Virus record (IMG/VR): IMGVR_UViG_3300025646_000031
Location: 6,462 to 70,461 of that record
DNA from: a virus
Length of the DNA: 64,000 nucleotides
Direction: 5' to 3' (one strand)
Below are positions 15,696 to 30,379 of the stretch, in pieces. Position numbers and translations under genes: made by a program. The notes beneath the pieces were generated by a model. It did no database searches, was not told where the DNA came from, and worked only from the letters and a program-made list of their open reading frames with translations. The first letter of the stretch is position 1, and each line of letters starts with the position of its first letter.

Positions 15696-15908
15696 ATGGA
15701 TGATTATGCAAAAGTTGAAGGACATTCATCTCTAATTAGAGATAATAAATCAACTGCTGTTATCAATACAGATATAGAAGCATATTATCTGGCAAGAAAA
15801 AGAAAAGAGATGTTTAAGTCTCAAAGAAATGAAATAAATACACTAAAGGAAGAAGTTAACAATATCAAAAACATTCTTCTGCAACTAGTAGAGAAAATAA
15901 ATGGCTAA
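15696..15908 (+). CDS. Small conserved phage protein with C-terminal coiled coil
   Basis: KVEGH..LIRD..S.AVIN motif; ATG at 15696 just after the previous stop is the likelier start. Confidence 0.65.
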   Translation: MDDYAKVEGHSSLIRDNKSTAVINTDIEAYYLARKRKEMFKSQRNEINTLKEEVNNIKNILLQLVEKING

Positions 15909-17256
15909 GACAGTAGACAATTTTAGTACTATAGAAAACTTTAGAACGAGGTATAATGAACTCGCCACCGATGTTGGTGATATTGCAGGTCTTAGAAGTT
16001 CAATTGGTGGTGCAACACTTGTAGATGCACTCAACACTTTAGAAGATAAATCATTTTTCTTTCAAGAATTTATTTTCAATGCAACTGCATCTCAAACCAC
16101 ATTTAGTGGTAATGATGAATTTGACAATGAACTAAGATTCAAAAGAAATAGAATTCAAGTTTTCAAAAACGGTAATCATCTATTAGAAGATGATGATTAC
16201 ATTATCGGAGGCCCATCAGGAAGTTTCCACACTTCTATTATTCTAAACTCAGGTGCATCTCTAAATGATAAAATTGTCATCTATGCATATACTGGTTCCT
16301 TTGAAGGAACAGCTGCATCTTCTAATATTGTAGGATATTTTTCAGAGTCAACACTAAACACTATTTACAATACTAACGATAATGGTATTATTCTAAATGG
16401 TGATAACTCTACACCTACAACACAACTACAATCAGGTTATACAATTCAACTTGCAGGTAAGTCATATGCAGAAGATGATATTACGCTTGCAAGTGGTAAG
16501 ACATTAAATGCACCTATTATTACAGATGGTACTGCACAAATCACAGGTGGAGTCGGAACTTCATTCTCAAGTATTACTTCAACAAATTTTGTAGGTAATC
16601 TAACAGGTAATATTACCTCAACAGGAACATCAACATTTTCAAATATAGATGTCAACGGTGGTGCAATAGACGGTGCTGTTATTGGTGCAAACTCAGCAGC
16701 TGCAATCACTGGTACAACAATTACCGCAAGTACTAACTTCTCAGGAAATCTAACAGGTAATGTCACTGGTAATGTGACAGGAACAGTTTCAAGTTTATCT
16801 AACCACGATACAGATGATGTAGCAGAAGGATCAACTAACCAATACTTCACAAACGCAAGAGCAGACGCTAGAATCGCAGCTGCTAGTATAGAAGATTTGT
16901 CAGATGTACACACATTAGGAACACCAACTGCTGGTCAGATACTTGCATGGAATGCTTCAAATAATAGATTTGAAATAGCAGACAATGCAACAGTTTCAGG
17001 AAGTATTACAGAAACAACAAATAAATACTTTACAGATGCCAGAGTAAATGATGTAATATCTGCTGGTTCAGGTCTTGCTAAATCTTATAATGCAGGCACT
17101 AGTGATCCTTTAGATGGTGTCGCAACATTATCTGTAAATACATCAAACGGTATCAAAATAGACGGTGATGATGTAGAGTTAGATTACGAAACAACTAGTA
17201 CTACACCTACAAGTGTAGGATCAACAGCTACAGGTCATCTGTGGTTTGTGATATAA
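15901..17256 (+). CDS. Fibre-like structural protein (cassette 1 anchor)
   Basis: GNLTGNVTG repeats, DTDDVAEGSTNQYFT motif, C-terminal STTP....GHLW. Confidence 0.7.
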   Translation: MAKTVDNFSTIENFRTRYNELATDVGDIAGLRSSIGGATLVDALNTLEDKSFFFQEFIFNATASQTTFSGNDEFDNELRFKRNRIQVFKNGNHLLEDDDYIIGGPSGSFHTSIILNSGASLNDKIVIYAYTGSFEGTAASSNIVGYFSESTLNTIYNTNDNGIILNGDNSTPTTQLQSGYTIQLAGKSYAEDDITLASGKTLNAPIITDGTAQITGGVGTSFSSITSTNFVGNLTGNITSTGTSTFSNIDVNGGAIDGAVIGANSAAAITGTTITASTNFSGNLTGNVTGNVTGTVSSLSNHDTDDVAEGSTNQYFTNARADARIAAASIEDLSDVHTLGTPTAGQILAWNASNNRFEIADNATVSGSITETTNKYFTDARVNDVISAGSGLAKSYNAGTSDPLDGVATLSVNTSNGIKIDGDDVELDYETTSTTPTSVGSTATGHLWFVI

Positions 17257-17272
17257 TGAAAAATGGTGAATA

Positions 17273-18385
17273 ATGGCAGACGAAATTTATATAAACACAG
17301 GAAGTACATTTCAACAACCGTATAACGCTAGAACACCTGCAAACGCCCAACAACCTTATATTGCTAATGCACAGCAACCTTATCCATACATTGCGAATGC
17401 ACAACAACCTTATATAGCAAACGCACAGCAACCGTATCCATATATTGCGAATGCACAACAGCCATACATTGCTAATGCACAGCAACCATATCCTTATATT
17501 GCCAATGCACAACAACCTTATATAGCAAATGCACGGCAACCATATCCTTATATTGCCAATGCACAACAACCATATATAGCAAATGCAAGAAACCCATTTA
17601 CATATGCTAGACAGGCACAGACACCATATCCTTACATAGTAAACGCTAGATCACCGTTTACTTATCAGGTGCCATTTATAACTCAGCAACCATACACTTT
17701 TAATGCTAGAACGCCGTTTACTTATCAGGCACAAGGTCGTGTACCTGCAAGTGCCCAACAACCATATACCTTTAGTGCCAGAAGACCTGCAGTAGGTAGA
17801 ATACCTTACATATATGCAGGTGATACAAGTTATATTGGTTCGAGTGGTTTAATTATAGATGATTGGGCTGAAACTAGTTCTGGTGGTGTTACCTCAGTTG
17901 CTGGTGTAATAATTTATGCTTACTACAGTAGTGCTAGTGAAATTCAACTAAAAGCACACATTTACTCTGCTGAGGATACTAGTTGGTACAACACTTCAAA
18001 TGTGCTTCAGGATCCCACTGCAGGAAAAGATTTACCACCAAACAATTTATTATACAAAATAGAAGATGTTGAAAGTGGTTATACTGTTAGATACTCTATA
18101 ACTGGTGGTACAACTACAACAGGAGATGATTATGCTACGGTGACTGGTTATAGTAGTTCTCCTGCAAATGCTAGTATGAGCCCGATTGTAGGTTCAATTT
18201 CAACAACTACTATACGAGGTGTCTTATTTAGGCATGTTGTAACTGTTAGTGACGGTGAATCTGCAAGTGGTGATACTTTGTTTGATAATGTTTCATTTAT
18301 ATTTGAAAAATCTGGTTCAACAACCTTTACAAAAACCTTTGATATCTTCTGTAATGCAAGTGCAGATTCTTATGGAGGGCAATAA
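17273..18385 (+). CDS. Pro/Tyr/Gln repeat protein A1 with C-terminal globular domain
   Basis: N-terminal DEIYIN, 20 Pro-delimited units (17318-17803), then about 190 aa of non-repetitive beta-rich sequence. Confidence 0.85.
   Translation: MADEIYINTGSTFQQPYNARTPANAQQPYIANAQQPYPYIANAQQPYIANAQQPYPYIANAQQPYIANAQQPYPYIANAQQPYIANARQPYPYIANAQQPYIANARNPFTYARQAQTPYPYIVNARSPFTYQVPFITQQPYTFNARTPFTYQAQGRVPASAQQPYTFSARRPAVGRIPYIYAGDTSYIGSSGLIIDDWAETSSGGVTSVAGVIIYAYYSSASEIQLKAHIYSAEDTSWYNTSNVLQDPTAGKDLPPNNLLYKIEDVESGYTVRYSITGGTTTTGDDYATVTGYSSSPANASMSPIVGSISTTTIRGVLFRHVVTVSDGESASGDTLFDNVSFIFEKSGSTTFTKTFDIFCNASADSYGGQ
17318..17803 (+). repeat. Coding tandem repeat of 18/24/30-nt units (A1)
   Basis: Unit lengths in aa: 6,6,8,10,8,10,8,10,8,10,8,10,10,6,6,8,10,6,8,6. 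Confidence 0.9.
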
Positions 18386-18387
18386 TA

Positions 18388-18639
18388 ATGGCAGTAACAT
18401 TTACTATTGATAATGTAGAATTGATAAGTACAACACATACTACAAGAAATGAAGAAGATGTTGTAATAAACACTTTTGAAAAGAATAAAACCTTTGCAAC
18501 AGTAACCTTTACAGATGGTACTAATTCTGTCACTAGACAATATAGTGTGAGAAACACAGAATATGCAAATTCTGATAATTTTAATAGTAGATTACAAAAT
18601 GTCGCAAACTTTTTAGAAACAGAGGTATGGAGTAGTTAA
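18388..18639 (+). CDS. Small hypothetical protein inside cassette 1
   Basis: GGAGG SD; packed tightly between A1 and B1. Confidence 0.7.
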   Translation: MAVTFTIDNVELISTTHTTRNEEDVVINTFEKNKTFATVTFTDGTNSVTRQYSVRNTEYANSDNFNSRLQNVANFLETEVWSS

Positions 18640-18641
18640 AG

Positions 18642-19286
18642 ATGCCTGTAGGTCAACAACCATATATCTATCAACAACCTTACATTGCTTCAGGTAGCAC
18701 TCCTATTATCGTTCAACAACCATATCCTTATATTGCAGAAGCTAGACAACCCTATATTGCTCAAGGTAGAACACCGACACCTGCTAGATATCCAGCTGAT
18801 GCTCAACAACCTTTTACTTTTCAGGCACAAGGTCAGACACCTTATCCGTATATTGCAGCTGCACAGCAACCATTTACCTATCAGGCTAGATCACCGTTTA
18901 CATATGCTAGACAAGGTCAAACACCGTTCACATATCAGAACAGGCAACCGTTCACATATGCAACACAAGGCAGAACGCCATTTACCTATCAGAACAGAAC
19001 TCCGTTCACATATGAAACACAAGGTAGAACACCATTTACCTATTCGAATAGAACGCCGTTTACTTATGCTAGACAAGGTCAAACACCGTTCACATATCAG
19101 AACAGGCAACCGTTCACATATCAAAATCCTTACATTGCAACAAGACCTATAGGTCCACTTGCAAAAGTTAAAGGCGTGTATGTAAACCAAGGTGGGTCTG
19201 TAGTACAAGTTGATGAAATCTATGTAAACAATTCTGGTACATTAGAAAAAATTCATCAACATCCATCTCAACCGTTTGACACCTAA
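18642..19286 (+). CDS. Pro/Tyr/Gln repeat protein B1
   Basis: GGAG SD; 20 units (18660-19145); C-terminal VKGVYVN..G...DEIYVN motif. Confidence 0.85.
   Translation: MPVGQQPYIYQQPYIASGSTPIIVQQPYPYIAEARQPYIAQGRTPTPARYPADAQQPFTFQAQGQTPYPYIAAAQQPFTYQARSPFTYARQGQTPFTYQNRQPFTYATQGRTPFTYQNRTPFTYETQGRTPFTYSNRTPFTYARQGQTPFTYQNRQPFTYQNPYIATRPIGPLAKVKGVYVNQGGSVVQVDEIYVNNSGTLEKIHQHPSQPFDT
18660..19145 (+). repeat. Coding tandem repeat (B1), mirror of A1
   Basis: Unit lengths in aa: 6,8,6,10,8,6,6,10,10,8,10,8,10,8,10,8,10,8,6,6; a 57-nt block is identical at 18903 and 19065. Confidence 0.9.
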
Positions 19287-19304: not shown

Positions 19305-19637
19305 ATGGCTATCATTGCAAACCTATACATAGATCAAGGAACAGACTTCAGTATAACAGTTGATGTAACTGATAGTGCAGGTGATATTTTAGAACTAAGT
19401 GATTACACAGCAGCTGCACAAATTAGAAAAACTTATAGTTCATCATCTGTCAGTGCGACCTTTGCTACTTCAATTGCAGAGTTAGCAGGTCAAGTAACTA
19501 TTTCTTTGACTGATACACAAACAGCTGCACTTGAAGCAGGTAGATATGTGTACGATCTAAATATAACAAGTTCTGCAGGTTTAGTCACAAGAGTGATTGA
19601 AGGACAGGCAATCGTAACGCCTGGCGTAACAAGGTAA
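19305..19637 (+). CDS. Small virion structural protein (fibre/baseplate adaptor-like)
   Basis: NLYIDQGTDF...AQIRK...GRYVYDL...TRVIEG...V.PGVT pattern common in T4-like marine phages; CATAAATA promoter at 19292. Confidence 0.7.
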   Translation: MAIIANLYIDQGTDFSITVDVTDSAGDILELSDYTAAAQIRKTYSSSSVSATFATSIAELAGQVTISLTDTQTAALEAGRYVYDLNITSSAGLVTRVIEGQAIVTPGVTR

Positions 19638-22944: not shown

Positions 22945-24957
22945 ATGGCAACTCAAAAAAAATTCATTGCAGACCTAGGATTTGAAACTCCAAGTGATTT
23001 GACTGTAAATGGTAATGCAACCATTGATGGAAATGCAACTGTAACAGGAAATCTTACTGTTAACGGAACATCAACCACAGTTAACTCAACCACTACATCT
23101 GTAACAGACTCAATGATTGAGCTTGCGAATGCGAATACAGGTTCAGATACACTTGATATTGGTATATACGGAAACTATGATGATGGTTTATCAGATGGTG
23201 GTGCAAGTGAATACACAGGTTTATTCAGAGATGCTTCAGACTCAACTTGGAAACTCTTTGATGGTTTAGAAGAAGAACCTACCACAACAGTCAATACAGC
23301 AGGAACAGGTTACGCAAAAGCAGCCTTAGAAGTTGGCGATCTATCTTGTACTACACTTACTGCAACTAACAGTCTTACAGGTGCAAGTATTACCTACCCA
23401 ACCTCAGACGGCACTGCTGGACAGTTTTTACAAACTGATGGAAGTGGAACATTATCATTTACTTCTGTTACAAGTTATTCTGATTCAGATGTAGAATCAT
23501 ACTTAGATGGTGGAACATCAACCCCTATTTTAGCAAATGCAACATTTGGTGGAATGAAACTTTTAAACCAAGCGGGCGGTGGTTCTATAGGATTAAATAG
23601 AGACCCTGCTGATGGCAATTATGTTGGTTCTGCAAGTTTACAAAGATTCCAAATCAACGGCCCACAAAGTGGTTCAGACTTTTTAGATTTTCAATCTTAT
23701 AACAGCAGTGGAACATATACAGGAAGTTTTTATCTAAATGCTGGCAAGCTTGGTATAGGCACAAACGCTCCTGACGATTTGCTTCATGTCTATGCAGGAA
23801 ATTCAGGAGCTACACCACATAGTCTCTCAGCAATGAATATTGAAAGTAGTTCAGATGTTGCAATGAATTTCCTAACTCCAAATACATCTCAAGCACAAAT
23901 AAGATTTGCAGACCCACAAGACGATGGAAAAGGCATTATTGGTTATAATCACAATGGTGATTACATGTTTTTTGCAACCAATGGGCCTGAGAAAATGAGA
24001 CTAAATTCTGACGGAAATCTCGGCGTTGGTATATCTACCATAGAACAACTCGGTTCAGATAGTGTATACCCAAGAATACAATCATATAGTTCCGATACAT
24101 CAGGACATTTCTGTGGATTGATGATTGGTCGTCCTAATTCACCAGGACTTGAATCATCAATGGCATTTACTGTTGGCGGAATTATGGTTGGAAAGATACA
24201 ACATGACTATGTTGCAGAAAATCATAACGATATGTCATTTCACCTTAGAGGTTCTTCAGGAGGTGGAGATATAGAGGTAATGAGACTGTGGGCTGGTTCA
24301 GGTAATGATACAGCTTTATTGGTAGGTAGAACAACAAGGTCTTGGGCTAATGCAGCTTTAGAAGTAGAAAGTAATGCAAGAATAGGAAACATATACCTAA
24401 CTGGTAGTGGTTCAGACAGCACAATATCAGCAGGTAATGCAAGCTATAAATTTAGCACAGCAACTGTAAATTGTGGTGCAACTGATTTAGATTTTGATGT
24501 AAATGTTGTAGTAACTGGTGTAGGAATCGCAAATAGATTTAAAGTTGATTCCCCAACTGGTGATACATATACAAATGATGGAACAATATCCTCATTATCA
24601 GATATAAGAGTTAAAACAGATATAAATGATTTGACAGATGGTCTTGAAATAGTAAAACAATTAAGGCCAGTTACTTTTAAATATAACGATAATTCAACAG
24701 ATGATGATGGAAATGGTATGTTGGCAGCTGCAGACGATAAAATTCGTTATGGATTTATTGCACAAGAGGTAGAAGAAGTTGCTCCTCATTATGTAGAAAC
24801 ATCAACAAGAAAAATAAACAATGAAGAAGTTAATGATTTTAAATCTTTATCAACAACAAGAATGATACCTATGTTATTTAAAGCCATCCAAGAACAACAA
24901 ACCATCATTGAAGACCTCAAAGCAAGAATAGAAACATTAGAGAACGCAAATTCGTAA
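22945..24957 (+). CDS. Tail fibre/spike with C-terminal peptidase S74 intramolecular chaperone
   Basis: LGIGT..P...LHV and EKMRL...GNLGVG repeats; S/DIRVKTDI...L.PV.F.Y...GFIAQEV...coiled-coil C-terminus. Confidence 0.85.
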   Translation: MATQKKFIADLGFETPSDLTVNGNATIDGNATVTGNLTVNGTSTTVNSTTTSVTDSMIELANANTGSDTLDIGIYGNYDDGLSDGGASEYTGLFRDASDSTWKLFDGLEEEPTTTVNTAGTGYAKAALEVGDLSCTTLTATNSLTGASITYPTSDGTAGQFLQTDGSGTLSFTSVTSYSDSDVESYLDGGTSTPILANATFGGMKLLNQAGGGSIGLNRDPADGNYVGSASLQRFQINGPQSGSDFLDFQSYNSSGTYTGSFYLNAGKLGIGTNAPDDLLHVYAGNSGATPHSLSAMNIESSSDVAMNFLTPNTSQAQIRFADPQDDGKGIIGYNHNGDYMFFATNGPEKMRLNSDGNLGVGISTIEQLGSDSVYPRIQSYSSDTSGHFCGLMIGRPNSPGLESSMAFTVGGIMVGKIQHDYVAENHNDMSFHLRGSSGGGDIEVMRLWAGSGNDTALLVGRTTRSWANAALEVESNARIGNIYLTGSGSDSTISAGNASYKFSTATVNCGATDLDFDVNVVVTGVGIANRFKVDSPTGDTYTNDGTISSLSDIRVKTDINDLTDGLEIVKQLRPVTFKYNDNSTDDDGNGMLAAADDKIRYGFIAQEVEEVAPHYVETSTRKINNEEVNDFKSLSTTRMIPMLFKAIQEQQTIIEDLKARIETLENANS

Positions 24958-26781: not shown

Positions 26782-28047
26782 ATGGTAACAGGTAATCAAA
26801 AGGTTAAGACCCCTACTGGTTGGAATTCCACGCAAGGTGCATGGGTTAAAACAGGTGCTACTACTTGGAAAGCAGTAGAACAAATCTATGTAAAAACGCC
26901 TACTGGTTGGAACAACGCTTCAGGTCAAGCATTAACACAACAACCATATCCTTATATAGCGAATGCTCAACAACCTTATATTGCTAATGCACAGCAACCT
27001 TATCCATATATAGCAAACGCCCAGCAACCTTATATCGCTAACGCTCAACAGCCTTATCCCTATATAGCGAATGCTCAGACACCCTATATCGCTAACGCTC
27101 AACAGCCTTATCCGTATATAGCAAACAGTCAGACACCATTCACATATCAAGCGAGGTCACCGTTTACATATAGTAATAGATATCCTGCAAATGCTCAGCA
27201 ACCTTACATTGCAAACAGTCAGACTCCATTTACATATAATAATAGATCGCCGTTTACATATAGTGCAAGATATCCTGCTAACGCTCAACAACCTTATATT
27301 GCAAACGCAAGACAACCGTTTACATATAATAATAGATCACCGTTTACATATAATGCAAGATATCCTGCTAACGCACAGCAACCGTACATAGCTAATGCTA
27401 GACAACCTGGCACATATCAGGTTCCTTTCAGTTATCGTGTTCCATACATCGCTAACGCTAGACAACCTGGCACATATCAAGTACCGTTTTCTTATCGAGT
27501 GCCTTATATTGCGAATGCTCAACAACCATTTACATATAGTTTTAGATTTCCATTCCTTTATCAATCAGCATTCCAGAAATTTGGATTTCAGGGTTGTTTC
27601 TTATGTTGTGTACATGATACTATGTTGGTGGCAACTGAGGAAGATATGAAAAGTATTTACGATTTAAATATAGGTGATAAAGTCATTTCACATAATTTTG
27701 AAACTGGACAAGATGAAGTAGTAGAAATAACCGATATCGTAATTGTTGATAGAGATGTAGATTACAAAGTCAACGATCTGATTATGACAGAAGACCATCC
27801 AGTTTACTTAGAGGGTGGCAGAAAAGCTTCAGTAAATCCTGATGCAACACTTTTAAACTACAAGCAAGAAGTTGATCAGTTAGTTGTTGGTGATAAAATG
27901 ATGAAACTTGATGGTTCATTAGAAGAAATTACTTCTATAGAACATTATGAGGGAAATCATAAAAACTTTGCAGTTCAAACCAAGTATAATAATTTCTACG
28001 CAAATGGACATTTGGTAGATTCAGTCATTGATAGAGGTAATAACTAA
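26782..28047 (+). CDS. Pro/Tyr/Gln repeat protein A2 with C-terminal Hint domain
   Basis: GAGG SD; three VKT...W motifs; 26 repeat units; Hint blocks CCVHDTMLV, L.IGDKV, TEDHP and NFYANGHLV. Confidence 0.85.
   Translation: MVTGNQKVKTPTGWNSTQGAWVKTGATTWKAVEQIYVKTPTGWNNASGQALTQQPYPYIANAQQPYIANAQQPYPYIANAQQPYIANAQQPYPYIANAQTPYIANAQQPYPYIANSQTPFTYQARSPFTYSNRYPANAQQPYIANSQTPFTYNNRSPFTYSARYPANAQQPYIANARQPFTYNNRSPFTYNARYPANAQQPYIANARQPGTYQVPFSYRVPYIANARQPGTYQVPFSYRVPYIANAQQPFTYSFRFPFLYQSAFQKFGFQGCFLCCVHDTMLVATEEDMKSIYDLNIGDKVISHNFETGQDEVVEITDIVIVDRDVDYKVNDLIMTEDHPVYLEGGRKASVNPDATLLNYKQEVDQLVVGDKMMKLDGSLEEITSIEHYEGNHKNFAVQTKYNNFYANGHLVDSVIDRGNN
26944..27549 (+). repeat. Coding tandem repeat (A2)
   Basis: Unit lengths in aa: 10,8,10,8,10,8,10,8,8,6,8,8,8,6,8,8,8,6,8,6,6,8,6,6,8,8. 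Confidence 0.9.
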
Positions 28048-28739
28048 TGCCAATAGCTGAAGGACAACAACCAACGATTGGAAATGCTAGGAGCCCTTTC
28101 ACCTATGAGGCGAGGTATCCAGCGATTGCTTACTATCCTGCTAACTATCAGAATCCGTTTACTTACGATGCTAGATATCCAGCGATTGCTTTCTATCCTG
28201 CTAACTATCAGAATCCGTTTACTTACAATGCTAGGTCGCCGTTTACTTATCGTGTGCCTTATATAGCAAATGCTCAACAACCATATATAGCTAACGGACA
28301 AAACCCATTTACTTATAACGCTAGATCACCGTTTACTTATCGAGTGCCTTATATTGCGAATGCTCAACAACCATACATAGCAAACGCTAGACAGCCTGGC
28401 ACATATAATGCTAGATCACCTTTTACCTATCAGGTTCCATACATTGCGAATGCTCAACAACCATACATAGCAAACGCTAGACAACCTGCAACATATCAAG
28501 CGCAAGGTAGAACTCCGTTCACATATCAGAACAGACAACCTTCTACATATGAAACACAAGGTAGAACTCCGTTCACATATCAGAACAGATCACCGTTCAC
28601 TTATGCTACACAAGGTAGAACTCCGTTCACATATCAGAACAGAACTCCGTTCACTTATGCTACACAAGGTAGAACACCAGTTGCTCGTTGGGATGGTGTG
28701 TTGACACAGCAGTGGCCTGCAACACCTGTATCTTCTTAG
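28047..28739 (+). CDS. Pro/Tyr/Gln repeat protein B2
   Basis: GAGGT SD; TAATG coupling to A2; almost entirely repeat. Confidence 0.85.
   Translation: MPIAEGQQPTIGNARSPFTYEARYPAIAYYPANYQNPFTYDARYPAIAFYPANYQNPFTYNARSPFTYRVPYIANAQQPYIANGQNPFTYNARSPFTYRVPYIANAQQPYIANARQPGTYNARSPFTYQVPYIANAQQPYIANARQPATYQAQGRTPFTYQNRQPSTYETQGRTPFTYQNRSPFTYATQGRTPFTYQNRTPFTYATQGRTPVARWDGVLTQQWPATPVSS
28071..28676 (+). repeat. Coding tandem repeat (B2), mirror of A2
   Basis: Unit lengths in aa: 8,8,6,6,8,6,6,8,6,8,8,8,6,8,8,8,6,8,8,10,8,10,8,10,8,10. Confidence 0.9.
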
Positions 28740-28780: not shown

Positions 28781-30379
28781 ATGACAGAGAAAAAAATACC
28801 TACTTGGAAAAGAAATCTAATTAGAATTACTTCTGTAGAAGAAGCAGAACAAATCAAACCATTAGATTATTCAAATAATTCCATTTTTAAATTACGAATG
28901 GATTTACCCACCTATCATTTGGGAACTCTATGTATCAATCGTTATTCAGATTATAACGAAACTTACAAAATACTGAAGTATCTTTTTGAAAACAAAATCT
29001 TACCACCTTTGAAAATTTTTAAATGGGGTGATGTAATTGCTGATCGAAAAGAAAAAAGATTGGCTTCTTTTAATGGTTTGAATTATCACTCAATGGTCTA
29101 TAACAGATTTCTACCTCATGGTTGGACATCTAAACCAGACCCAAAATATATTGGTGGTATGAATTTCCAATCAATTGATGGTGACGATAAGACCATACAT
29201 GATTATTGTATGGAAAAAGACGATCCGTACTACAACGATCAGGGCTGGTTAACTTCTTTAAATGCTTCTTACTATCATTCTGCTAAAGCACACTGGTTAG
29301 TTCATAGTATTCAAAAGGAAGGACTATGGGCGCCTGTTCAAGGATTGACATCAGGTACAAAAGAACGATACAGTATTTTCGCACATCCAGGTTCTATCAG
29401 ATCAGCTATTGTAGAAGAGATGCAAGATCCAGATTTAGTATGGCATGTTTGGGATTGTGTTGGTGTTATACCAACTGAACCAAAAACAGTTGATGAGTTT
29501 CTTCAGTTTTGGAAAGAAGTTTTAAATAAAAAAAATGTAAAACAAGATGAAATGTCTTTTATAATACAGGCAGGAGCAATTGAAGTACAAACAGATTTAG
29601 CAAGTTTAGAGTTTAGAAATGAAATATATGATTTCAATAAAAAGGTTTCAAAACTTGCAAAGAAAAAACCATTAAACATTTACATTGGTTATGATTCAAC
29701 ACACAATGATATAGAAAAGATTTCAAAATATTCTATAGAAGAATCTATTAAGAGAAATTTTTCAGGCGGCAATGATGGTAAGTATACACAATTTGTTCCT
29801 GAAATAAAAATGCTTGACATTTCTAAGATTCCAGAATATACTAGACCTTATGCAAATCAAAATACAGAGTTTACTTATAGTAGATTTTTAATTCCGTATT
29901 TAGAAAATTATGAAGGATTTAGCATCTTTGTAGATGATGATTTCATCTTTAATAAAACTATATTGTCATTGTTATATTACTTACATCCAGATGATGCAGT
30001 TGCATGTATTCAATATCCACAATACAAACATGATAACACTAAATTTGTTGGTGCAGTTAACATAGATTATCCAAGAAAACTATGGTCTAGTATGATGGTC
30101 TTTAATAATGGACATGAAGACTGCAAAAAACTAACACCTGAAACAATAAATACTTGGACAGGAAAACAGTTACATCAATTTGAATGGACTGAAAAGATCA
30201 GTAAGATACCTGAAAAATATATCTTTACTGAAGGTTATGATGATCCTGAAACTAAGTGGGATGTTTCAGGTTATCATTATACAAGAGGTGGTCCTTGGAT
30301 TGACGATATGGACTGTTCAAAAATTTCTAGGTTAGAAGTTTATGAAAAATTTAAAACGCTTTATGAAAGTGAGAGGTAA
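28781..30379 (+). CDS. GT-A fold glycosyltransferase (GT8/CDI-like) with an additional N-terminal domain
   Basis: IYIGYD, TEFTYSRFLIP, FVDDDF (DxD), YPRK.WSS and HYTRGGPW motifs in the C-terminal half. Confidence 0.8.
   Translation: MTEKKIPTWKRNLIRITSVEEAEQIKPLDYSNNSIFKLRMDLPTYHLGTLCINRYSDYNETYKILKYLFENKILPPLKIFKWGDVIADRKEKRLASFNGLNYHSMVYNRFLPHGWTSKPDPKYIGGMNFQSIDGDDKTIHDYCMEKDDPYYNDQGWLTSLNASYYHSAKAHWLVHSIQKEGLWAPVQGLTSGTKERYSIFAHPGSIRSAIVEEMQDPDLVWHVWDCVGVIPTEPKTVDEFLQFWKEVLNKKNVKQDEMSFIIQAGAIEVQTDLASLEFRNEIYDFNKKVSKLAKKKPLNIYIGYDSTHNDIEKISKYSIEESIKRNFSGGNDGKYTQFVPEIKMLDISKIPEYTRPYANQNTEFTYSRFLIPYLENYEGFSIFVDDDFIFNKTILSLLYYLHPDDAVACIQYPQYKHDNTKFVGAVNIDYPRKLWSSMMVFNNGHEDCKKLTPETINTWTGKQLHQFEWTEKISKIPEKYIFTEGYDDPETKWDVSGYHYTRGGPWIDDMDCSKISRLEVYEKFKTLYESER

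What the first reader, a model, noticed from the sequence alone, without database searches (positions are those of the whole stretch)
17273..19286. Independent second mirror pair with a different barcode (cassette 1)
Seen: A1 units are 6,6,8,10,8,10,8,10,8,10,8,10,10,6,6,8,10,6,8,6, and B1 read backwards is identical (20 of 20, 162 aa each; PYPY and PTP counted within a unit). The same complementarity holds, including the swap: A1 PFTYARQAQT faces B1 PYPYIAAAQQ, and the next A1 PYPYIVNARS faces B1 PFTFQAQGQT. The more diverged distal units still keep their lengths. Finding the rule twice with different sequences makes chance very unlikely. Inference: the differing barcodes let A1 pair fully only with B1 and A2 only with B2, giving two orthogonal stalks. 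A1 carries a ~190 aa globular domain at the predicted tip, a candidate adhesin, with the 83-aa 18388 protein as possible cap or chaperone.
Basis: partly seen in the sequence, partly recalled or inferred. Interest (0 to 1): 0.9.

Follow-up and report, generated by a model that had tools for sequence, protein, structure and literature searches.

The report
Mirror-coded two-protein phage fibre stalk
Two neighbouring genes of an uncultured marine T4-like phage encode proline-punctuated repeat proteins that match unit for unit when one is read backwards, which points to a long two-chain, head-to-tail fibre stalk held in register by a pairing code that I did not find described.

Summary
A1 (17273..18385) and B1 (18642..19286) each hold 20 proline-started units of 6, 8 or 10 residues (162 aa). 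The A1 length series equals the B1 series read backwards, 20 of 20; 0 of 20000 order shuffles reach this. PYIA-type units always face PFTY-type units.

The rule is general. Of 58 distinct barcode pairs in related viral contigs, 22 mirror perfectly and 35 reach at least 0.92, with runs up to 69 units. 1550 of 1624 in-register unit pairs hold exactly one aromatic xTY unit. Covariation peaks at even, antiparallel position pairs.

Natural single-chain forms join an A-type start and a B-type end. They sit in the same genomic slot, and their two arms obey the same code.

Best reading: A1 and B1 pair antiparallel and in register. This forms an out-and-back stalk on the upstream fibre, with A1's beta-sandwich domain at the tip. 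Binding itself is not shown.

Orthogonality to cassette 2 is only partly supported, and the role of the 83-aa gene is unknown. No Pfam or PHROG family, cultured phage or paper matched. Earlier follow-ups of this scan found the same kind of pair on other DNA.

The parts
15901..17256 (+). Upstream fibre-like gene (451 aa) ending ...GSTATGHLWFVI. Proposed carrier of the stalk.
   Evidence: It matches phrog_697 structural protein at 5.4e-07. In every type-1 row that shows an upstream ORF (9 rows), that ORF ends ...GHLWFVI. The same holds for 10 of 11 single-chain loci. Attachment to it is inferred.
17273..17317 (+). A1 N-terminal end module (residues 1-15, MADEIYINTGS...). One copy of an [IV]Y[IV]N..G motif.
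   Evidence: It is conserved at the start of all type-1 A proteins and of the single-chain forms.
17318..17803 (+). A1 repeat array: 20 units, 162 aa (residues 16-177).
   Evidence: Unit parse is. All 27 aromatic residues sit at even unit positions, and there is no His, Cys or Lys.
17804..18385 (+). A1 C-terminal globular domain (residues 178-370), predicted to sit at the fold point (tip).
   Evidence: AF2 gives pLDDT 80.8, pTM 0.80, 12 strands and no helix. Only 7 relatives at E<=1e-3 were found among 1.84 billion representatives. There is no clear PDB fold match.
18388..18639 (+). m83, an 83-aa gene between A1 and B1; function unknown.
   Evidence: No Pfam or PHROG family matches. Among the 14 mid-ORF sequences compared (one of them the window's own gene), only the L001 counterpart is similar. 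Against L001 it has 60 identical, 6 synonymous and 16 amino-acid-changing codons.
18660..19145 (+). B1 repeat array: 20 units, 162 aa (residues 7-168), the mirror complement of the A1 array.
   Evidence: All 32 aromatic residues sit at even unit positions.
19146..19286 (+). B1 C-terminal end module (residues 169-214) with two copies of the [IV]Y[IV]N..G motif.
   Evidence: It is conserved at the end of type-1 B proteins and of the single-chain forms.
19305..19637 (+). Downstream 110-aa gene, LtfC-like. Syntenic partner of type-1 cassettes.
   Evidence: It matches phrog_1084 at 1.5e-28 and phrog_3304 'L-shaped tail fiber protein assembly' at 3.6e-24. It follows all 10 type-1 split rows and 10 of 11 single-chain loci.
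26782..28739 (+). Cassette 2 (A2 26782..28047, B2 28047..28739), the comparator pair with another barcode and other end modules.
   Evidence: It mirrors in 26 of 26 units. The A2 C-terminus gives sub-threshold Hint-clan hits.

Best explanation
A1 and B1 are the two halves of one fibre stalk. Their 162-residue arrays lie side by side in opposite directions and in exact register. Each proline-bounded unit of A1 faces a unit of the same length in B1, and a small-residue unit (PYIA, PANA) always faces an aromatic unit (PFTY). The A1 N-terminus and the B1 C-terminus therefore meet at the proximal end, and together they carry three copies of a similar short motif. The A1 beta-sandwich domain sits at the distal tip as the likely host-contact part. 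The stalk most likely hangs on the C-terminal end of the upstream fibre protein, inside the host-recognition region of a T4-like marine myovirus. Shown here: the mirror and the complementarity, their conservation through many length changes, residue covariation in antiparallel order, and fused single-chain versions. Inferred: physical pairing, extended beta-like strands, attachment to the upstream fibre, the tip's role in adsorption, and the number of A/B pairs per fibre.
For: (1) A1 equals reversed B1 in 20 of 20 units, and 0 of 20000 shuffles reach this. A2/B2 match in 26 of 26.
(2) Comparison: 109 adjacent pairs in 117 sources gave 58 distinct barcode pairs. 22 of them mirror over the whole shorter array (17-44 units) and 35 score at least 0.92. 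Mirrored runs reach 68-69 units (L064, L070).
(3) A parse-free count of coinciding unit-start prolines is higher antiparallel than parallel in 67 of 68 distinct sequence pairs, with 1 equal.
(4) The cognate partner is strictly the best among all partners with another barcode in 44 of 57 cases, ties in 4 and is worse in 9.
(5) Close relatives differ by unit insertions and deletions in both partners at mirrored places. Examples are L022 against L026, and L099, L092, L084 and L079, each perfectly matched.
(6) 1550 of 1624 in-register unit pairs (95.4%) hold exactly one xTY-type unit. About 54% is expected from the marginals.
(7) Mutual information between paired units peaks at even-even, antiparallel position pairs: 8-aa units 2-6 0.84, 4-6 0.75, 6-2 0.63; 6-aa units 2-6 1.20; 10-aa units 8-2 and 10-2 1.03. 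The maxima of 1000 partner shuffles are 0.19-0.41.
(8) Aromatic residues sit only at even unit positions, 27 of 27 in A1 and 32 of 32 in B1. This is an unbroken two-residue period over 162 residues, as in an extended strand with one aromatic face.
(9) Natural single-chain proteins carry the A-type start, an array, a middle region of about 100 aa, a second array and the B-type end. 11 of 73 type-1 loci hold such a form in the same slot between the same neighbour genes. In 12 of 12 of them, arm 1 against reversed arm 2 scores 54-145 with a matrix learned from split pairs. Parallel scores are 15-29, and unit shuffles reach at most 40-63.
(10) No DNA inverted repeat links the two genes, so the mirror is kept at protein level.
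(11) Context: the genes lie in a T4-like structural module, between fibre-like genes, with conserved neighbours.
Against: There is no physical evidence of binding, of incorporation into the virion or of the stoichiometry. No cultured phage carries the genes, so no micrograph or proteome can be consulted.
Exceptions exist. In 9 of 57 barcode pairs the cognate is not the best partner; these are cut ORFs, near-identical relatives and diverged loci. In L021 one partner lacks three units (20 aa) that the other keeps. In the diverged type-1 loci L009, L013, L017 and L018 the proline register is weak (0.29-0.38). There only the matrix-based score still favours the antiparallel order: 59-89 against 30-39 parallel and shuffle maxima of 31-51.
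In single-chain forms the simple proline count did not clearly beat its control.
Mutual information is inflated by shared ancestry of co-duplicated units, although ancestry does not explain its restriction to even, antiparallel position pairs.
Both arrays are net positive (Arg 10 and 13, acidic 0 and 3), so pairing would have to overcome like charge.
Confidence: 0.75

Rival explanations
1. The stalk is a trimer of hairpins (A3B3, six strands) built like the stem of the T4 gp37 needle, not a single two-chain duplex. The A/B pairing would then be one of several contacts around a threefold axis.
For: In T4 gp37 the stem is made of residues 882-931 and 960-1009, with the tip 932-959 inserted between them. 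The proximal domain D10 is made of residues 811-881 and 1010-1026. A small residue (G921) packs on an aromatic one (F970) of another subunit in the trimer core (PMC6957217, passages read). The topology matches the single-chain forms here. The small-against-aromatic rule here is similar. One apolar aromatic face needs burial, which a bundle would give.
Against: The arrays hold no His-x-His motif and no His at all. No sequence relative was found in the PDB or in Pfam. The end modules carry three motif copies per A/B pair, one in A1 and two in B1. That would fit one pair per trimeric carrier equally well. Stoichiometry could not be tested.
Confidence: 0.35
2. A1 and B1 do not touch each other. 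Each lies along a common third partner, for example the upstream fibre shaft or a host polymer, in opposite directions. The mirror then reflects the template and not mutual pairing.
For: The cassette always follows a fibre-like gene. Mirror lengths alone would also arise if both chains had to fit one template.
Against: Unit types are complementary between A and B, not alike. Residues covary between A and B. Arrays range from about 20 to about 70 units, and the listed upstream proteins range from 77 to 910 aa; whether the two lengths track each other was not tested. Fused forms keep the code within one chain.
Confidence: 0.06
3. The pair does bind, but it is not a lasting part of the virion. 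It would be an assembly scaffold, a length ruler or a chaperone pair for the fibres.
For: Fibre modules often hold assembly factors. The next gene is LtfC-like, annotated in PHROGs as fibre assembly. Virion presence was not tested.
Against: Many A proteins carry variable globular C-terminal domains at the predicted tip. That is the pattern of receptor-binding proteins and not of chaperones. The length and sequence diversity resembles host-range determinants in a host-recognition cluster (PMC7029224, passages read).
Confidence: 0.1
4. The mirror is chance, or a by-product of how the units were cut.
For: The parse drops the first 5-aa piece of B1 and treats PYPY and PTP as internal.
Against: 0 of 20000 shuffles reach the match in either cassette. 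One fixed parse gives 22 perfect mirrors among 58 different barcodes. The parse-free proline count agrees in 67 of 68 pairs.
Confidence: 0.01

Closest known systems
Needle (domains D10-D11) of the T4 long tail fibre tip protein gp37 (PDB 2XGF as cited in PMC6957217)
   Same: Both are phage fibre tips in which the chain runs out along a thin stem, forms a small tip and runs back, so the first and last segments meet at the proximal end. In gp37 the stem is 882-931 plus 960-1009, the tip is 932-959 and D10 is 811-881 plus 1010-1026. A small residue packs against an aromatic one across strands (G921 on F970). The single-chain forms here have this topology.
   Different: gp37 is one chain per hairpin, a homotrimer, with arms of 50 residues and no repeats. 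[quoted passage not shown] That these sites are His-x-His motifs is recalled from the literature. Here the arms are 162 residues in this cassette, and mirrored runs of 68-69 units occur in relatives (roughly 540 residues by my estimate from the unit lengths). They are built of 6/8/10-residue units with a type and length code, are mostly split into two genes, and hold no His. No sequence similarity was found.
Antiparallel coiled-coil arms of SMC/Rad50-type proteins, and the side-by-side antiparallel alpha/beta spectrin heterodimer (recalled; no call)
   Same: These are long rods made of two antiparallel segments whose irregularities must match in mirror order. Spectrin does this with two separate repeat proteins.
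   Different: Those are alpha-helical, with heptads or 106-aa repeats, and are cellular. Here the units are 6-10 residues long, proline-bounded and have a strict two-residue period, which fits strands. This comparison is from memory and was not tested.
Adhesin gp38 on the tip of gp37 in T2- and S16-like phages (recalled; no call)
   Same: A separate gene product is mounted on the distal end of a trimeric fibre and carries the receptor contact.
   Different: gp38 is a single compact protein with glycine-rich helices and not a two-chain repeat stalk. The only trace here is an Atlas structure row for B1 with TM 0.27 to a GP38-family cluster, which is not meaningful.

Membership tests
T4 gp37 needle (D10-D11) | The stem is formed by two antiparallel segments flanking an inserted tip, with both ends in the proximal domain. 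| tested here: met
   Tested at sequence level only: mirror arrays, single-chain forms with an A-type start and a B-type end, and an antiparallel code between their arms. The gp37 layout was read.
T4 gp37 needle (D10-D11) | Metal-binding histidines along the stem. H929 of the three chains coordinates an iron; the His-x-His form of the motif is recalled. | tested here: not met
   The four arrays hold 0 His and 0 HxH. The only HxH lies at B1 residue 205, outside the array.
T4 gp37 needle (D10-D11) | Detectable sequence relationship to gp37. | tested here: not met
   There is no Pfam family for A1 or B1. phmmer against all PDB chain sequences gave no match at E<=1 for B1. For A1 it gave only an antibody chain at E 0.46.
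T4 gp37 needle (D10-D11) | Homotrimer. | not testable with these tools
   The one complex job gave no verdict. Stoichiometry needs experiment.
Hint / intein-like domain (only for the A2 C-terminus of the comparator cassette) | A match to a Hint-clan profile above its curated cut-off. | tested here: inconclusive
   Five Hint-clan Pfam families hit below cut-off: Hint_2 1.3e-3, Vint 4.9e-3, Hint 8e-3, PT-HINT 0.013 and Hom_end_hint 0.14. Longer relatives of the family carry precomputed Hint or intein Pfam hits. A1 has no such domain.
Known phage protein families (PHROGs) and Pfam | Any profile match for A1, m83 or B1. | tested here: not met
   0 families in Pfam at E<=0.01 and 0 in PHROGs at E<=0.001 for the three proteins. 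For m83 the only hit is Gp77 at E 0.096.

The most novel reading that the evidence does not exclude
These proteins form a new kind of protein duplex. Two polypeptides pair antiparallel over hundreds of residues through a modular code. Unit length sets the register, and small-against-aromatic unit types set the partner. The code evolves by compensatory unit insertions and deletions much as an RNA stem does. It gives phages length-tunable, mutually exclusive fibre stalks and a fold that current predictors do not know.
Probability: 0.5. Interest if true: 0.92.

Novelty: categorically new. Interest (0 to 1): 0.85.

Why it matters
If the pairing is real, it is a sequence-readable rule for how two protein chains find each other and stay in register over 50 nm or more. 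That is rare outside coiled coils and collagen, and it could be reused to build heterospecific protein rods.

For phage biology, it would explain how abundant marine T4-like phages change fibre length and tip domains by matched unit gains and losses. It would also explain how one virion can carry two stalks that do not mix.

It also marks a widespread family that has no annotation: 271 longer relatives at E<=1e-10 and well over 100 viral contigs.

Tried and rejected
Structure prediction of the pair: complex prediction on A1(1-200) plus B1 returned 'no answer' (score 0.00, partner pLDDT under 50). It counts neither for nor against binding.

AlphaFold2 on the natural single-chain form P0036, with an alignment of 12 such proteins, gave pLDDT 30.2 and pTM 0.16, so no usable model.

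Search for cultured relatives found nothing. Megablast of 15 kb found only a 66-bp match to cyanophage P-RSM6. tblastn of B1, of the A2 N-terminus and of the B1 C-terminus against 50,697 phage records found nothing; the low-complexity filter may hide repeats. B2 found nothing in Pelagibacter phages HTVC008M and Mosig or in Methylophilales phage Melnitz, 0 of 3. The same tool did find the genes in the window's own record.

Cellular genomes: only 1 locus among one genome each of 185,579 species. It is a 9.6-kb contig of a Verrucomicrobiales MAG, too little to name a host.

Fold of the A1 tip domain: Foldseek against the PDB gave nothing at E<=0.001. VIA-align against 48,161 chains gave a best Z of 5.8 (6kjk_A, rmsd 4.3, 109 aligned), in the range of common beta-sandwich resemblance. 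BFVD gave 8 matches at E<=0.001, none with a named function.

m83: no relationship to the other small inter-genic ORFs by phmmer or hhalign (probability under 1%). The Atlas look-alikes are unnamed viral clusters.

Literature: five full-text searches found no description. They were 'tail fiber / antiparallel / heterodimer / cyanophage', 'Hint domain / tail fiber / bacteriophage', 'pelagimyophage / tail fiber', the peptide words PYIANA, PFTYQ and PYPYIA anywhere (2 unrelated muscle papers), and 'tail fiber / two-gene / antiparallel / repeat / marine / T4-like'. Only listings and abstracts were seen for these, apart from passages of PMC7029224 and PMC6957217. Supplementary files were not opened and could hold relevant sequences.

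A DNA inverted repeat was considered as the cause of the mirror and rejected.

A simple proline-coincidence test on single-chain forms was not discriminating, for example 18 against 16 and 13 against 13. It was replaced by the matrix-based test.
Full report
WHAT IS THERE. The window is the structural region of an uncultured T4-like myovirus. Baseplate wedge, sheath, portal, scaffold, major head protein and large terminase are recognised by PHROGs. The window is part of a 70,461-bp IMG/VR record rated 39% complete. The major head protein is about 65% identical to those of Methylophilales phage Melnitz and of Pelagibacter phages HTVC008M and Mosig. All genes lie on the + strand. The finding covers three tightly packed genes: A1 (17273..18385, 370 aa), m83 (18388..18639, 83 aa) and B1 (18642..19286, 214 aa). 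A second cassette, A2 (26782..28047) and B2 (28047..28739), lies 7.5 kb downstream.

I cut the proteins before each proline and kept PYPY and PTP inside a unit. A1 residues 16-177 and B1 residues 7-168 then each give 20 units of 6, 8 or 10 residues, 162 aa in all. The A1 series equals the reversed B1 series in 20 of 20 units. None of 20000 shuffles of the unit order reaches this; the best was 16. The best parallel match is 13 of 15. A2 and B2 match in 26 of 26 units. The cross pairs reach 10 of 20. Unit types are complementary: PYIA-type units face PFTY-type units, including at the place where the types swap sides. There is no DNA inverted repeat between the genes, so no mutational mechanism produces a mirror on the same strand. 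Both genes show far more synonymous than amino-acid-changing differences against a 93%-identical relative: A1 83 against 40, B1 33 against 14.

THE RULE IS GENERAL AND CO-EVOLVES. Searching viral contigs with B1 and B2 brought 30 and 79 loci. In all sources together, 109 adjacent same-strand gene pairs carry such arrays, with 58 distinct barcode pairs. Of these, 22 mirror over the whole shorter array (17-44 units) and 35 score 0.92 or more. The longest mirrored runs have 68-69 units. Even rare 4-residue units are mirrored (L116, L066). Many apparent mismatches are parsing effects, for example a 10-unit facing 4+6, or 16 facing 8+8.

Without any unit parse, coinciding unit-start prolines are more numerous antiparallel than parallel in 67 of 68 distinct sequence pairs. 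The cognate partner beats every partner with another barcode in 44 of 57 cases, ties in 4 and loses in 9. The losers are mostly cut ORFs, near-identical relatives and diverged loci. Related phages differ by unit gains and losses that appear at mirrored places in both partners. Examples are L022 against L026, and the series L099, L092, L084, L079. L021 is an exception: one partner lacks three units.

In four diverged type-1 loci the proline register is weak (0.29-0.38). A residue-pairing matrix learned from other pairs still scores them 59-89 antiparallel, against 30-39 parallel and shuffle maxima of 31-51.

A RESIDUE-LEVEL CODE. Of 1624 in-register unit pairs, 1550 contain exactly one aromatic xTY-type unit. 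Only 7 are xTY with xTY and 1 is YIA with YIA. Mutual information between positions of paired units peaks at even-numbered positions in antiparallel order. For 8-residue units the values are 2-6 0.84, 4-6 0.75 and 6-2 0.63. All are far above the maxima of 1000 partner shuffles. The N-terminal half of one unit thus covaries with the C-terminal half of its partner.

In the proline-opposite-proline register the most enriched opposite pairs are I-R, P-P, F-Q, G-Y and A-Y, leaving out the rare E-F pair (62 cases) that tops the list. Every aromatic residue of A1 (27 of 27) and B1 (32 of 32) sits at an even unit position. Because all units have even length, this two-residue period runs unbroken through the array. 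I read this as extended strands with one aromatic face. That is an inference. At about 3.3 Angstrom per residue, 162 residues would span roughly 50 nm.

FUSED FORMS. Among longer relatives of B2 there are 271 at E<=1e-10, all unnamed or labelled hypothetical. Some of them are natural single chains. They have the A-type start, an array, a middle region of about 100 aa, a second array and the B-type end. In viral contigs, 11 of 73 type-1 loci hold such a gene in the same slot. In 10 of the 11 the upstream gene ends ...GHLWFV, and in 10 of the 11 the LtfC-like gene follows. In 12 of 12 such proteins the first arm scored against the reversed second arm gives 54-145. Parallel scores are 15-29, and unit shuffles reach at most 40-63. 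By the usual gene-fusion argument, fused and split forms of one function support direct contact of A and B. They also fix the topology: out, tip, back.

ENDS, TIP AND NEIGHBOURS. Two end types exist. Type 1, which includes cassette 1, starts MADEIYINTGS and ends with two copies of a similar [IV]Y[IV]N..G motif. Type 2, which includes cassette 2, starts with three VKT...W motifs and ends ...RWDG...WPATP. Each type follows its own fibre-like gene, with a conserved last stretch...GHLWFVI for type 1 and ...GDLW[IV][LY]YS for type 2. Each type also has its own downstream gene. Many contigs carry both types. This fits the 'host recognition cluster' described for pelagimyophages (PMC7029224, passages read).

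The A1 C-terminal 193 residues fold confidently as an all-beta domain (pLDDT 80.8). It has few relatives, 7 at E<=1e-3, and no convincing known fold. Other A proteins end in other globular domains, in a Hint-like domain or in short glycine-rich tails. This is the variability expected of a receptor-binding tip.

Small ORFs of 82-100 aa lie between A and B where A has a large domain. m83 is related only to its L001 counterpart and changes fast: 16 amino-acid-changing against 6 synonymous codons. Its role is open.

ORTHOGONALITY. With a matrix trained without the window's relatives, the cognate scores are A1/B1 164 and A2/B2 290. The cross pairs score 84 and 96, same-protein pairs (A1/A1, B1/B1, A2/A2, B2/B2) 37-129, and parallel pairings 42 or less. 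The cassettes share an alternating 10/8 run of 8 units (series), so partial cross-pairing cannot be excluded. The distinct end modules may add specificity.

COMPARISON WITH WHAT IS KNOWN. Earlier follow-ups of this scan, on other genomes, reached the same reading and named the T4 gp37 needle as the closest known. I read the cited paper. The gp37 stem is made of residues 882-931 and 960-1009 around an inserted tip, and a glycine packs on a phenylalanine of another subunit. The topology is the same. The arrays here have no histidine, no detectable sequence relationship, arms three to ten times longer, a repeat code, and mostly two genes. I therefore do not file them as gp37 relatives. Whether the stalk is a two-chain duplex or a trimer of hairpins remains open. 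I found no description in five literature searches.

VERDICT. Antiparallel coded pairing is the best explanation, with confidence 0.75. It rests on comparative sequence evidence only. The structure predictions gave no usable answer.

Noticed in passing
window 27580-28044 (C-terminus of A2): This Hint-like domain hits five Hint-clan Pfam families below cut-off. A nearly identical module ends the A proteins of L012 and of the type-1 locus L003, and each is followed at once by the B gene. Many longer relatives carry precomputed Hint or intein Pfam hits. It may cut itself off the stalk end.
   Followed up: partly
window, 12 sites from 1241 to 50148: TATAAATA, recalled as the T4 late promoter word, occurs 12 times, all on the + strand and, where I compared positions with the ORF list, just ahead of gene starts. 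About 6.9 are expected, and 4 of 100 shuffles reach 12. None lies between 7546 and 19861, so cassette 1 may belong to one long late transcript together with the baseplate and fibre genes upstream.
   Followed up: no
L021 2100-2918 compared with L022 1095-1973: In L021 the A-like partner lacks three units (6,6,8; 20 aa) that L022 has, while the B-like partners are identical. It is either a tolerated bulge or an assembly collapse in the repeats.
   Followed up: no
window 28781-30379: This 532-aa gene (phrog_28018 at 7.1e-37, weak Glyco_transf_8) has a counterpart of about 470-550 aa directly after the type-2 cassette in every row that shows a downstream ORF. It may modify the Thr- and Tyr-rich stalk, or it may just be the next conserved gene.
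   Followed up: no
loci L064, L070, L074, L078, L079, L083, L084, L092, L093, L095, L099 (between the A and B genes): Small ORFs of 85-100 aa sit between A and B when A has a large C-terminal domain. Two of the sequence groups are related (hhalign probability 90.9%), but none is related to m83.
   Followed up: partly
L120 (NYWG01000101.1, 9.6-kb contig of a Verrucomicrobiales MAG): This is the only match to B2 among one genome each of 185,579 prokaryote species. It is probably a phage contig binned with the MAG and was not examined further.
   Followed up: no
window 22945-24957: By eye, the C-terminal part of this 670-aa fibre-like protein resembles the self-cleaving intramolecular chaperone domain of tailspikes. 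That is a recalled resemblance; no profile search was run on it.
   Followed up: no
window 18388-18639 (m83) compared with L001: m83 has more amino-acid-changing (16) than synonymous-only (6) codon differences against its 93%-related locus. This is unlike A1 (40 against 83) and B1 (14 against 33).
   Followed up: no
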